Shown: positions 22,815 to 24,648 of the stretch, in pieces
Position numbering within the stretch: the stretch's first letter is position 1
How the letters are laid out: each line of letters opens with the position of its first letter
Source of the DNA: Escherichia coli
GTDB lineage: Bacteria; Pseudomonadota; Gammaproteobacteria; Enterobacterales; Enterobacteriaceae
DNA length: 64,000 nt
Direction: 5' to 3' (one strand)
NCBI RefSeq assembly: GCF_003991155.1
Contig: NZ_CP031293.1
Notes under the pieces: model-generated
What the model saw: the letters and a program-made list of their open reading frames with translations, nothing else
Database searches by the model: none
What the model was told of the DNA's origin: nothing
Program-made: the position numbers and the translations under genes

Positions 22815-23105
22815 ATGGCCAGTGGCGATCTTGTCCGTTATGTCATAACCGTCATGTTGCACGAAGATACATTGACTGAAATTAACGAGTTGAATAATTA
22901 CCTGACTCGCGACGGTTTTTTGCTCACCATGACGGATGATGATGGAAATATCCATGAGCTGGGGACTAACACTTTTGGACTTATCAGTACCCAAAGTGAA
23001 GAAGAAATTAGAGAACTGGTTTCGGGGCTTACCCAAAGTGCAACCGGCAAAGATCCTGAAATCACCATCACGACCTGGGAGGAATGGAATAGCAACAGAA
23101 AATAA
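22815..23105 (+). CDS. ydiZ: small protein of unknown function (96 aa)
   Basis: ORF with plausible start; synteny. Confidence 0.7.
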   Translation: MASGDLVRYVITVMLHEDTLTEINELNNYLTRDGFLLTMTDDDGNIHELGTNTFGLISTQSEEEIRELVSGLTQSATGKDPEITITTWEEWNSNRK

Positions 23106-23210
23106 ATGGTTTTTGGGCAATAATCAGTCTGTGGTGTGCGTTAGCTCGTGTTTTTACACCGCATTCTTGCGCTAACCTTATGATCTGGCAGACAACATGG
23201 GAGAGACATC

Positions 23211-24071
23211 ATGTGGCAGGCAATCAGTCGTCTTTTGAGCGAGCAGTTAGGTGAAGGCGAAATCGAACTGCGTAATGAACTGCCTGGCGGAGAAGTCCAT
23301 GCCGCATGGCATTTGCGCTATGCAGGACATGACTTTTTCGTCAAATGTGATGAAAGGGAACTGCTTCCTGGTTTTACCGCCGAAGCTGACCAACTGGAGT
23401 TACTGTCGCGTAGTAAAACCGTCACCGTGCCTAAGGTTTGGGCAGTTGGCGCTGACCGTGACTACAGTTTTCTGGTGATGGATTATCTCCCACCTCGCCC
23501 GCTGGATGCGCATAGCGCATTTATTCTTGGTCAGCAAATTGCGCGTTTACATCAATGGAGCGACCAACCACAATTTGGCCTCGATTTCGATAACGCGCTC
23601 TCCACAACTCCCCAGCCCAACACCTGGCAACGTCGCTGGTCAACGTTTTTTGCTGAACAACGGATTGGCTGGCAGCTGGAACTGGCGGCAGAAAAAGGGA
23701 TCGCTTTCGGCAATATCGATGCCATCGTCGAGCATATTCAGCAGCGTCTGGCCTCGCATCAACCGCAGCCTTCTCTGTTGCACGGCGATTTATGGTCCGG
23801 CAACTGTGCGCTGGGTCCGGATGGCCCGTACATTTTCGACCCGGCCTGCTACTGGGGTGACCGAGAGTGCGACCTGGCGATGTTACCGCTGCATACTGAA
23901 CAGCCGCCACAAATCTATGACGGCTATCAGTCAGTATCCCCGCTACCTGCCGATTTCCTTGAACGTCAACCGGTTTACCAACTCTACACGCTGTTAAATC
24001 GTGCAAGGTTATTTGGCGGTCAGCATTTGGTTATTGCTCAGCAGTCACTGGATAGATTATTAGCAGCATAA
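23211..24071 (+). CDS. yniA: fructosamine-kinase-family putative kinase
   Basis: 286-aa ORF; HGDLWSGN catalytic-loop-like motif. Confidence 0.8.
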   Translation: MWQAISRLLSEQLGEGEIELRNELPGGEVHAAWHLRYAGHDFFVKCDERELLPGFTAEADQLELLSRSKTVTVPKVWAVGADRDYSFLVMDYLPPRPLDAHSAFILGQQIARLHQWSDQPQFGLDFDNALSTTPQPNTWQRRWSTFFAEQRIGWQLELAAEKGIAFGNIDAIVEHIQQRLASHQPQPSLLHGDLWSGNCALGPDGPYIFDPACYWGDRECDLAMLPLHTEQPPQIYDGYQSVSPLPADFLERQPVYQLYTLLNRARLFGGQHLVIAQQSLDRLLAA

Positions 24072-24111
24072 TATGGGGTGAGGATAATGGCCGCTCCGTG
24101 CGGCCTTTTGA

Positions 24112-24648
24112 TTAAATAAACCCAAGCAGAGAAAAGAACACATAACCTGCAGCAATACAAATAAGCGGCAGGATATACAGCGAGAAAAACTGCAGGAAAA
24201 TAGTATGGTGCGGAACAACAATACGTGACTCAATTTGTTCACGCGTTAGCCCCTCTTCCCCTTTGGCTTTTTCCAGAATGAGTTGATCTTCAACACCTTC
24301 CCGCAAGAAGCGCGCCTGGCGACTCATCCGGGCTCCGGAATCCTGCAACGCCAGTCCGACAAAAATCAGGATGAAAATCACCCAGAACATAACGTTCACG
24401 CCACCATTAAAATTGGGCGTCGGAGAGTTGTACCAGAACAGATTCAAAAAAGGCGTATTCGCCTGCATCATATCGATCATGACATGAGTAAAGTCGAGCA
24501 TGACCGCATTAATGCCTTCCTGGTTTTCCTGCCGGGTATTCATAAATTTCAGCAAAGAAATCAATGTAGAGATCAATGCAGGTATAAAAATCACCCAACC
24601 CAAAATCCTTTTCAAAACAGCAATGCGTCCAGCTTGTTGATACGTCAT
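24112..24648 (-). CDS. yniB: inner-membrane protein of unknown function
   Basis: 178-aa ORF with several hydrophobic segments. Confidence 0.75.
   Translation of the reverse strand: MTYQQAGRIAVLKRILGWVIFIPALISTLISLLKFMNTRQENQEGINAVMLDFTHVMIDMMQANTPFLNLFWYNSPTPNFNGGVNVMFWVIFILIFVGLALQDSGARMSRQARFLREGVEDQLILEKAKGEEGLTREQIESRIVVPHHTIFLQFFSLYILPLICIAAGYVFFSLLGFI

What the first reader, a model, noticed from the sequence alone, without database searches (positions are those of the whole stretch)
22815..24648. ydiZ-yniA-yniB: putative small-molecule kinase flanked by a small protein and a membrane protein
yniA belongs to the fructosamine-kinase-like family (HGDLWSGN catalytic-loop-like motif). It sits between the 96-aa ydiZ and the convergent membrane protein yniB, and immediately downstream of pfkB. 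The physiological substrate in E. coli is, as far as I know, not firmly established. The arrangement could represent a small repair or salvage unit for glycated or modified amines.
Basis: inference. Interest (0 to 1): 0.3.

Follow-up and report, generated by a model that had tools for sequence, protein, structure and literature searches.

The report
Known E. coli ydiZ-yniA-yniB genes
These are three already-annotated core E. coli genes (a GhoS-family small protein, a fructosamine-kinase-family protein of unknown substrate, and a small helical membrane protein) that lie together mostly by shared chromosomal ancestry and show no sign of forming a dedicated repair module.

Summary
ydiZ (22815-23105 +), yniA (23211-24071 +) and yniB (24112-24648 -) are intact ORFs, and YniA carries HGDLWSGN. 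The window is E. coli chromosome, and 5420 of 5426 complete genomes hold this stretch.

YniA matches the fructosamine-kinase Pfam family over its full length and keeps the ATP-binding and catalytic residues. Its substrate is still unknown. It belongs to a gamma-proteobacterial subclade with its own signature (DPAxYWGDRECD, LNR). In this subclade the catalytic Asp is replaced by Asn in Pasteurellaceae, including PDB 3JR1, and in some Enterobacterales.

The "repair unit" idea is not supported.
- ydiZ is a fast-evolving GhoS-family paralogue. It has no GhoT partner and no equivalent of GhoS R28, and it is deleted in several genera.
- yniB is convergent. It is separated from yniA by a rearrangement in about 18 of 79 Enterobacteriaceae species. 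In more distant genomes it sits beside the HAD phosphatase gene hxpB more often than beside a kinase gene.
- ydiZ and yniA each have their own conserved promoter-like block.

The only link between them is shared stationary-phase/RpoS induction reported in published transcriptomes. Verdict: ordinary, already-annotated genes. The remaining open question is small: what YniA-clade proteins actually do.

The parts
22777..22783 (+). CTATGCT, a sigma-S-like -10 element about 32 nt upstream of the ydiZ start (predicted ydiZ promoter)
   Evidence: The motif cgaCTATGCTaaaaaa is conserved in 17 of 19 aligned genera although the surrounding spacer is not. ydiZ rises together with RpoS-type genes after acid shift and at entry into stationary phase. 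The promoter function is inferred and was not mapped.
22815..23105 (+). ydiZ (b1724), 96 aa, a solitary GhoS-family (PF11080) ferredoxin-like protein
   Evidence: ORF. Pfam GhoS 8e-49. The AF2 model is beta-alpha-beta-beta-alpha-beta with pLDDT 79. GhoS 2LLZ has the highest TM-score among the PDB hits listed (0.63/0.61), but no hit has E below 1e-3. hhalign against a GhoS profile gives E 4.7e-5 and probability 68%. Identity to GhoS is only 17% and pairwise BLAST finds no hit. The window holds no GhoT-like ORF.
23136..23210 (+). Conserved 75-bp block upstream of yniA holding a TATGAT -10-like hexamer (23179-23184) and the GGGAGAG Shine-Dalgarno sequence; predicted yniA promoter and 5' UTR
   Evidence: The block is nearly invariant across 26 Enterobacteriaceae sequences, including genera that lack ydiZ. 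The ydiZ-yniA spacer shows no terminator-like site and no significant RNA structure (z = +0.69). The promoter function is inferred.
23211..24071 (+). yniA (b1725), 286 aa, a fructosamine-kinase-family (PF03881) protein
   Evidence: ORF. Pfam 1e-117 over the full length. PDB relatives are 3JR1 (6e-71), 6OID plant ribulosamine 3-kinase (7e-36) and human FN3K (3e-26). K45, E58, D193, N198 and D210 are retained. yniA is among the top 100 RpoS-dependent genes in EDL933 (mean expression ratio 63). Protein abundance is listed as 133 ppm.
23781..23804 (+). Codons for HGDLWSGN (residues 191-198), the catalytic loop with Asp193
   Evidence: Read directly from the sequence. HGDLW is kept in all 80 Enterobacteriaceae loci. 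It is HGN in Pasteurellaceae and some Enterobacterales.
24089..24105 (.). GC-rich hairpin GGCCGCTCCGTGCGGCC between the convergent yniA and yniB, followed by a T-run on the + strand; probable shared terminator
   Evidence: Terminator-like site. Folds at -13 kcal/mol on both strands, z = -3.0 on the minus strand.
24112..24648 (-). yniB (b1726), 178 aa, a YniB-family (PF14002) all-helical membrane protein, convergent with yniA
21785..22714 (+). pfkB (6-phosphofructokinase II), upstream neighbour (context only)
   Evidence: NCBIfam equivalog PRK10294, 654 bits. K-12 annotation. A hairpin without a U-tract lies at 22723-22742 just after the stop codon.
24795..25463 (+). hxpB/yniC (HAD hexitol phosphatase), divergent from yniB; the most constant neighbour of yniB (context only)
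   Evidence: NCBIfam HxpB equivalog, 394 bits. An HAD gene lies beside or near YniB in 7 of 10 contexts outside Enterobacteriaceae.

Best explanation
The three genes are separate, conserved backbone genes of the Enterobacterales chromosome. They are not one functional module.

yniA encodes a cytoplasmic kinase of the fructosamine-3-kinase fold. From its residues I infer that it binds ATP through Lys45 and Glu58. I also infer that Asp193 acts as the base and Asn198 and Asp210 hold the metal for phosphorylating a hydroxyl group. It is made mainly in stationary phase under RpoS, probably from its own promoter just upstream, with possible read-through from ydiZ. It belongs to a gamma-proteobacterial subclade whose pocket periphery differs from the validated ketosamine 3-kinases. 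Its real substrate is therefore most likely not the ribulosamine, erythrulosamine or fructosamine substrates already tried.

ydiZ is an independently promoted, sigma-S-type stationary-phase gene for a GhoS-like ferredoxin-fold protein that has no toxin partner.

yniB is a convergently transcribed small helical membrane protein that stays beside hxpB more consistently than beside yniA.

Shown here: gene structure, family membership, residue conservation, synteny patterns. Taken from papers: RpoS and stationary-phase induction. Inferred: promoters, catalytic mechanism, non-ketosamine substrate.
For: - Structure and identity.
- Core genome: 5420 of 5426 E. coli genomes.
- Kinase residues are intact in all 80 Enterobacteriaceae species. 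YniA is the best conserved of the local soluble proteins: median identity to E. coli is 88.8%, against PfkB 83.2%, HxpB 85.6%, YniB 78.7% and YdiZ 59.3%.
- Clade signature: GDRE where the three aligned structurally solved homologues (Arabidopsis, T. fusca, human) have GH.E, and LNR/LNF where they have LNH/LVH. Of the nine human FN3K substrate contacts, four are identical, one is a conservative change and four differ.
- Separate conserved promoter-like blocks upstream of ydiZ and yniA. The yniA block is kept where ydiZ is deleted.
- ydiZ is absent upstream of yniA in 17 of 79 species and yniB is absent downstream in 18 of 79. In the two loci checked, tonB-cls-kch follows yniA instead.
- YniB occurs without a kinase neighbour in L082, L083/84, L085-87, L088, L090 and L096. 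The kinase occurs without YniB in Pasteurella and Photobacterium.
- RpoS and stationary-phase induction of yniA and ydiZ.
Against: - The convergent yniA/yniB pair does recur outside Enterobacteriaceae: in Serratia, Musicola, Providencia and one further genome. In Musicola both flanks are different. Some selective linkage therefore cannot be excluded.
- ydiZ and yniA are on the same strand, 105 bp apart, with no terminator between them, and they are induced together. Partial co-transcription is plausible.
- In the human enzyme, single alanine substitutions of F252, N287, H288, H291 and F292 retained activity on glycated lysozyme. The pocket differences therefore do not prove a different substrate.
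- The negative enzyme assay is recalled from memory and could not be read here.
Confidence: 0.6

Rival explanations
1. One reading: ydiZ, yniA and yniB work together as a repair or salvage unit for glycated or otherwise modified amines. YniA would phosphorylate the adduct, and the other two proteins would help in processing or export.
For: - FN3K-family membership of YniA.
- ydiZ and yniA are both induced at entry into stationary phase.
- The yniA/yniB convergent pair is kept in four Enterobacterales genomes outside Enterobacteriaceae.
- A GhoS-family gene lies in the same neighbourhood in Serratia.
Against: - ydiZ is missing upstream of yniA in 17 of 79 species and yniB is missing downstream in 18 of 79.
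- Each gene occurs without the others in more distant genomes.
- yniB is convergent.
- YdiZ belongs to an RNase-type family with no known link to amines.
- Both ydiZ and yniA have their own promoter-like blocks.
- From memory, YniA was inactive on ketosamines (Gemayel 2007).
Confidence: 0.08
2. YniA is an ordinary ribulosamine/erythrulosamine 3-kinase acting in protein deglycation, like its Gram-positive and Thermus homologues. On this view the reported in-vitro inactivity was a preparation artefact.
For: - Lys45, Glu58, Asp193, Asn198 and Asp210 are all present.
- The equivalents of the three residues shown to be essential in human FN3K (I25, D217, W219) are Val, Asp and Trp.
- Strong purifying selection.
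- Stationary-phase expression fits a repair role.
Against: - The whole clade replaces GH.E with GDRE and, in most members, LNH with LNR/LNF.
- The catalytic Asp is Asn or Ala in 83 of 120 sampled clade members. These include Serratia and a Moellerella, close to Asp-bearing relatives. That is hard to reconcile with a conserved canonical kinase reaction.
- The negative assay recalled from Gemayel 2007.
Confidence: 0.22
3. ydiZ is a type V antitoxin, as the RefSeq pipeline names it ('ghoS'). It would control a nearby membrane toxin, for example a cryptic small ORF or even yniB.
For: - RefSeq annotation of many E. coli genomes calls this gene ghoS.
- Pfam GhoS match of 164 bits.
- Fold and profile similarity to GhoS.
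- YniB is a membrane protein.
Against: - No GhoT/OrtT-like sequence anywhere in the window (best tblastn E 0.57), and no small hydrophobic ORF beside ydiZ.
- GhoS R28, described as the most important residue for its RNase activity, aligns to Asn27 in YdiZ in both MAFFT and hhalign.
- yniB is 178 aa, is not adjacent to ydiZ, and persists where ydiZ is deleted.
- No PADLOC hit.
- True GhoS is confined to Escherichia and Shigella, whereas YdiZ spans Enterobacteriaceae.
Confidence: 0.04

Closest known systems
Bacterial and plant ribulosamine/erythrulosamine 3-kinases and human FN3K/FN3K-RP (Pfam PF03881; PDB 6OID, 3F7W, 9CX8)
   Same: Full-length match to the family model. Same Lys/Glu ATP-binding pair, HGDLWxxN catalytic loop and DPA metal-binding Asp. 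The equivalents of human D217, W219, N287 and F292 are identical.
   Different: - GDRE in place of GH.E, Cys in place of the specificity residue F244, LNR in place of LNH (H288), Ser in place of G152, His in place of F252, and no P-loop Cys.
- No low-molecular-weight phosphatase partner gene was seen next to yniA in E. coli.
- Reported inactive on ketosamines (memory of Gemayel 2007).
- Catalytic Asp is lost in many clade members.
PDB 3JR1, putative fructosamine-3-kinase of Histophilus (Haemophilus) somnus
   Same: Closest solved structure (E 6e-71, residues 1-267 aligned). It shares the YniA-clade signature CYWGDRECD.
   Different: 3JR1 has HGNLW and NPA, so it lacks both catalytic-site aspartates. 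E. coli YniA keeps both. No function is attached to the entry name.
GhoS (YjdK), the endoribonuclease antitoxin of the GhoT/GhoS type V system (PDB 2LLZ)
   Same: Same Pfam family PF11080. Colinear alignment over about 66-94 residues. Ferredoxin-like beta-alpha-beta-beta-alpha-beta fold. GhoS has the highest TM-score among the PDB hits listed for the YdiZ model.
   Different: 17% identity with no pairwise BLAST hit. Asn in place of R28. No adjacent ghoT. YdiZ is widespread in Enterobacteriaceae and present in a Serratia genome, whereas GhoS is limited to Escherichia and Shigella.
YniB family (PF14002); one orthologue is named 'YfeABCD regulator YfeE' in UniRef
   Same: Full-length match. In Serratia and one other genome, yfeABCD-type ABC transporter genes lie just upstream of yniA-yniB, which fits the YfeE name.
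   Different: E. coli has no yfeABCD genes at this locus. No function is established, and no informative structural relative was found.

Membership tests
Fructosamine-3-kinase family (PF03881) | Full-length match to the family profile above the curated cut-off | tested here: met
   392.7 bits against a cut-off of 22.4; residues 1-285 on profile positions 1-287 of 288.
Fructosamine-3-kinase family (PF03881) | ATP-binding beta3 Lys and alphaC Glu | tested here: met
   FFVK (K45) and FTAEA (E58) align with the same motifs in the plant, T. fusca and human enzymes.
Fructosamine-3-kinase family (PF03881) | Catalytic loop HGDxWxxN with the Asp base (human D217) and Trp (W219), plus the metal-binding DPA Asp | tested here: met
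   HGDLWSGN (191-198) and FDPA (D210) are present, and both are invariant in 80 Enterobacteriaceae species. Many other members of the same clade have HGN or HGA.
Fructosamine-3-kinase family (PF03881) | The nine substrate-contact residues of human FN3K (I25, G152, D217, W219, F252, N287, H288, H291, F292), reported as highly conserved family-wide | tested here: inconclusive
   Read by eye from the HMMER alignment and the MAFFT alignment: four are identical (D, W, N, F292), I25 becomes V, G152 becomes S, F252 becomes H, H288 becomes R and H291 becomes L. H291 is also L in the plant and T. fusca sequences. Residue list.
Fructosamine-3-kinase family (PF03881) | ATP-dependent phosphorylation of ketosamines (fructosamine, ribulosamine or erythrulosamine) at C3 | not testable with these tools
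   This needs an enzyme assay. From memory of the abstract of Gemayel et al. 2007 (PMID 17681011; not held), YniA was inactive on all tested substrates.
GhoS type V antitoxin | Membership of PF11080 and a GhoS-like ferredoxin fold | tested here: met
   Pfam 163.9 bits. hhalign E 4.7e-5. The AF2 model has the highest listed TM-score to 2LLZ (0.63), although all Foldseek E-values exceed 1e-3.
GhoS type V antitoxin | An adjacent GhoT-type small membrane toxin gene whose mRNA the antitoxin cleaves | tested here: not met
   No GhoT-like match in the 64-kb window (best E 0.57), and no small hydrophobic ORF between 22650 and 23300. The gene downstream is yniA.
GhoS type V antitoxin | Catalytic Arg28 | tested here: not met
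   R28 aligns with Asn27 of YdiZ in both MAFFT and hhalign. The importance of R28 is stated in PMC4010927. The alignment is at 17-18% identity, so the register carries some uncertainty.
YniB family (PF14002) | Full-length profile match and a helical membrane architecture | tested here: met
   250 bits, residues 15-177 on profile positions 1-166 of 166. The AF2 model is all-helical with pLDDT 92.
Single operon or functional gene module (ydiZ-yniA-yniB) | Co-transcription | tested here: inconclusive
   yniB is on the opposite strand, so it is excluded. ydiZ and yniA share a strand with a 105-bp spacer and no terminator, but each has its own conserved promoter-like block. No transcript data could be examined.
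Single operon or functional gene module (ydiZ-yniA-yniB) | Conserved co-occurrence and adjacency across genomes | tested here: not met
   ydiZ is present upstream of yniA in 62 of 79 species and yniB downstream in 61 of 79. Each is found without the others in more distant genomes. The yniA/yniB pair is kept in four Enterobacterales contexts outside Enterobacteriaceae.

The most novel reading that the evidence does not exclude
YniA-type proteins of gamma-proteobacteria are not ketosamine 3-kinases. They would be a distinct, strongly conserved, RpoS-induced subfamily of the FN3K fold (signature DPAxYWGDRECD) that either acts on a different substrate or has a function not needing the canonical catalytic base. 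The Asp is repeatedly replaced by Asn or Ala: in all sampled Pasteurellaceae including PDB 3JR1, in Serratia ureilytica and in a Moellerella. Meanwhile the rest of the site stays invariant.
Probability: 0.3. Interest if true: 0.45.

Novelty: already known. Interest (0 to 1): 0.18.

Why it matters
It matters little as a discovery. The genes, their families and their unknown status are already in the standard E. coli annotation.

The useful outcomes are corrections and a sharper question.
- The RefSeq pipeline name 'ghoS antitoxin' for ydiZ is an over-annotation.
- The three genes should not be treated as a module.
- YniA is an abundant, highly conserved, RpoS-dependent orphan of the FN3K fold. 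Its clade shows an altered pocket and recurrent loss of the catalytic Asp. Anyone looking for its substrate should therefore look beyond ketosamines.

Tried and rejected
- Literature. Whole-word searches for YniA and ydiZ returned only transcriptome tables and lists. A search for b1725/P77739/JW1714 returned only noise. Gemayel 2007 and Wang 2012 are not held, so the key biochemical statement on YniA rests on my memory of the abstract. Several reviews that cite Gemayel 2007 say nothing about the E. coli enzyme.
- Toxin-antitoxin reading of ydiZ: rejected because there is no GhoT-like ORF and no R28.
- Defence-system reading: no PADLOC hit for any of the three proteins.
- RNA element in the spacers: no Rfam hit with E up to 1 in 20500-25600, and the ydiZ-yniA spacer has no significant fold.
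- Generic sigma-70 scan: found no promoter in either spacer. The promoter-like blocks came only from cross-species conservation.
- Genome-contig scan with YniA: the 80 loci kept were all Enterobacteriaceae at 85% identity or more. Wider context had to come from 12 single look-ups, so counts outside the family are anecdotal.
- A functional link with pfkB and hxpB (all sugar-phosphate enzymes) was considered. The pfkB-yniA adjacency holds only within Enterobacteriaceae (73 of 76). In the four Enterobacterales contexts outside that family the upstream genes were different: yfe-type ABC transporter genes in Serratia, Providencia and L097, and unrelated genes in Musicola.
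Full report
**1. What is there**

The window is E. coli chromosome. The stretch 21500-25600 is 100% identical to several complete genomes, and 5420 of 5426 complete E. coli genomes hold at least 80% of it.

- ydiZ 22815-23105 (+, 96 aa)
- yniA 23211-24071 (+, 286 aa)
- yniB 24112-24648 (-, 178 aa)

The flanking genes are ydiY (DUF481, -), pfkB (+) and hxpB/yniC (+). HGDLWSGN is encoded at 23781-23804. K-12 annotates the three genes as 'putative endoribonuclease YdiZ', 'putative kinase YniA' and 'uncharacterized protein YniB'.

**2. YniA**

YniA matches Pfam Fructosamin_kin over its full length (1e-117). Solved relatives are 3JR1 from H. somnus (6e-71), the Arabidopsis ribulosamine 3-kinase 6OID (7e-36), T. 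fusca 3F7W and human FN3K.

I aligned it with these and with 110 gamma-proteobacterial relatives.
- E. coli YniA keeps the ATP-binding Lys45 and Glu58, the catalytic loop H191-G-D193-L-W195-S-G-N198 and the metal-binding D210-P-A.
- HGDLW and DPACYWGDRECD are invariant in 80 Enterobacteriaceae species.

The nine human FN3K residues that contact the substrate mimic are I25, G152, D217, W219, F252, N287, H288, H291 and F292. Of these, I25, D217 and W219 are essential (bioRxiv 10.1101/2025.07.30.667714). Read from the alignments, YniA compares as follows:
- Identical: Asp, Trp, Asn and Phe at the D217, W219, N287 and F292 positions.
- Conservative change: Val for I25.
- Different: Ser for G152, His for F252, Arg for H288 and Leu for H291. 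Leu at the last position is also found in the plant and T. fusca sequences.

Across the clade, GH.E becomes GDRE, and the specificity residue F244 becomes Cys.

The catalytic Asp is not conserved across the clade. It is Asn in every sampled Pasteurellaceae protein (including 3JR1), in Serratia ureilytica and in a Moellerella, and it is Ala in seven proteins. In the sample the counts are 76 Asn, 31 Asp and 7 Ala. That sample is biased toward Pasteurellaceae because of the query used.

YniA is nevertheless under strong constraint. Median identity to E. coli over 74 non-Escherichia species is 88.8%, higher than PfkB (83.2%), HxpB (85.6%), YniB (78.7%) and YdiZ (59.3%).

It is also expressed.
- It is listed at 133 ppm protein abundance (PMC9841429).
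- It is induced at the transition to stationary phase (PMC2241611).

No paper in the library assigns a substrate. From my memory of the abstract of Gemayel et al., FEBS J 2007 (PMID 17681011; not held), four bacterial homologues were ribulosamine/erythrulosamine 3-kinases and E. coli YniA was inactive on everything tested.

**3. YdiZ**

It is a member of Pfam GhoS (PF11080, 164 bits), and the RefSeq pipeline names it 'ghoS' in many E. coli genomes.

The real GhoS (b4128, next to ghoT) also hits PF11080 (139 bits). The two proteins compare as follows:
- They share only 17% identity, and pairwise BLAST gives no hit.
- Profile-profile comparison gives E 4.7e-5 and probability 68% over 66 columns.
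- An AF2 model of YdiZ (pLDDT 79) is a beta-alpha-beta-beta-alpha-beta ferredoxin-like fold.
- GhoS 2LLZ has the highest TM-score among the PDB hits listed (0.63/0.61), but no hit reaches E below 1e-3.

So YdiZ is a distant paralogue of GhoS and not a GhoS.
- R28 is described as the most important residue for GhoS RNase activity (PMC4010927). It aligns to Asn27 in YdiZ.
- No GhoT-like sequence or small hydrophobic ORF lies nearby.
- True GhoS is confined to Escherichia and Shigella (47 clusters, all at least 64% identical). YdiZ spans Enterobacteriaceae and appears in Serratia.
- YdiZ also weakly matches a phage family of unknown function (phrog_8894, 2.8e-6) and YmfI.

**4. YniB**

YniB matches PF14002 over its full length. 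The AF2 model is a confident all-helical membrane protein (pLDDT 92) with no informative structural relative. The family is small: 145 clusters at 50% identity among 1.84 billion representatives.

**5. Is it a unit?**

Within 80 Enterobacteriaceae species:
- ydiY-pfkB-yniA is nearly constant (pfkB in 73 of 76).
- ydiZ is missing upstream of yniA in 17 of 79: the Citrobacter freundii complex, Kluyvera, Intestinirhabdus and Yokenella. Six of these were measured and have a pfkB-yniA gap of 221-279 bp. In the aligned examples the stretch just before the yniA block resembles the ydiZ 3' end.
- yniB is missing downstream of yniA in 18 of 79. In the two loci examined (L056 Trabulsiella, L069 Superficieibacter), yniA is followed by tonB, cls and kch, so a rearrangement breakpoint falls exactly between yniA and yniB.

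Outside the family:
- The convergent yniA/yniB pair is kept in Serratia, Musicola (with different flanks), Providencia and one more genome.
- YniB occurs without any kinase neighbour in six other contexts. In two of them ydiY directly abuts yniB, with no pfkB-ydiZ-yniA.
- An hxpB-like HAD gene lies beside or near YniB in 7 of 10 contexts, against 4 of 10 for the kinase.
- YniA homologues in Pasteurella and Photobacterium have neither partner.

These out-of-family counts come from single look-ups and are anecdotal.

**6. Transcription**

yniB is convergent with yniA, and the two share a GC hairpin at 24089-24105. The 105-bp ydiZ-yniA spacer has no terminator-like site and no significant fold (z = +0.69), so read-through is possible.

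Cross-species alignment reveals two conserved promoter-like blocks.
- CGACTATGCTAAAAAA, with a sigma-S-like -10 (CTATGCT, 22777-22783), lies upstream of ydiZ in 17 of 19 genera.
- A 75-bp block (23136-23210) with TATGAT at 23179-23184 lies upstream of yniA. It is conserved even where ydiZ is deleted.

ydiZ tracks RpoS-type genes after acid shift, after rifampicin and at stationary-phase entry. I conclude that the two genes share regulation. They may overlap in transcription, but each probably has its own promoter. This is inferred from conservation and was not mapped.

**7. Conclusion**

The best-supported reading is three separate, conserved backbone genes.
- YniA is a stationary-phase, RpoS-dependent kinase of the FN3K fold. 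It has intact catalytic residues in E. coli and a clade-specific pocket, so its substrate is probably not the classical ketosamines.
- The 'repair or salvage unit' is not supported.
- The finding is already known and ordinary.

The only non-trivial residue is the unresolved function of the YniA clade, together with the recurrent replacement of its catalytic Asp.

Noticed in passing
window 22815-23105; many RefSeq E. coli records: The RefSeq pipeline names ydiZ 'ghoS: type V toxin-antitoxin system endoribonuclease antitoxin GhoS'. ydiZ is only 17% identical to true GhoS, lacks R28 and has no ghoT partner. True GhoS is restricted to Escherichia and Shigella. The name looks like an over-annotation driven by the Pfam family.
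   Followed up: yes
Proteins P0266-P0348 (Pasteurellaceae), L093:4001-4870 (Serratia), P0357, P0366, P0383: YniA-clade proteins in all sampled Pasteurellaceae (including the solved structure 3JR1), Serratia ureilytica and a Moellerella have HGN in place of the catalytic HGD, and seven have HGA. DPAxYWGDRECD stays invariant. H. somni also has NPA in place of DPA. This suggests a function that does not need the canonical catalytic base.
   Followed up: partly
L093:1-5466 (Serratia) and L097:4001-8546: In Serratia a GhoS-family gene is followed by yfeABCD-type metal ABC transporter genes, then yniA and the convergent yniB. The same yfeABCD-yniA-yniB order is seen in L097. One YniB orthologue is named 'YfeABCD regulator YfeE' in UniRef, so YniB may correspond to Yersinia YfeE.
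   Followed up: partly
L056:3551-8021 and L069:6893-11169: In Trabulsiella and Superficieibacter, yniA is followed by tonB, cls and kch (L069) or an ABC-transporter ATPase gene (L056) in place of yniB-hxpB. A chromosomal rearrangement breakpoint therefore falls exactly in the yniA/yniB convergent spacer. Other genera that lack yniB downstream were not checked.
   Followed up: partly
L071 (CACSKA010000003.1): This contig is labelled 'Chryseobacterium sp. 18061'. It carries a typical Enterobacteriaceae ydiY-pfkB-ydiZ-yniA locus (YniA 86% identical to E. coli), almost the same as L076 'Citrobacter sp. 18056'. The assembly is probably mislabelled or contaminated.
   Followed up: no
window 22723-22742: A GC-rich hairpin (UUCCCCC-UGCAUU-GGGGGAA) lies directly after the pfkB stop codon and has no U-tract. 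Other genera have a C-run and G-run hairpin at the same place with a different sequence. It is possibly a pfkB 3'-end stabiliser or weak terminator.
   Followed up: no
window 22815-23105: YdiZ weakly matches a phage protein family of unknown function (phrog_8894, E 2.8e-6) and the NCBIfam model for the YmfI phage protein (E 9.5e-4, far below its cut-off). PF11080-like proteins may therefore also occur in prophages.
   Followed up: no
window 23190-23213: yniA starts with AUGUGG and is listed among AUGUG-initiating genes, with no predicted start ambiguity (PMC9841429). Its mRNA is listed as cut by MazF 17 nt upstream of the start (PMC5001579). That position is close to where a transcript from the predicted TATGAT promoter would begin.
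   Followed up: no
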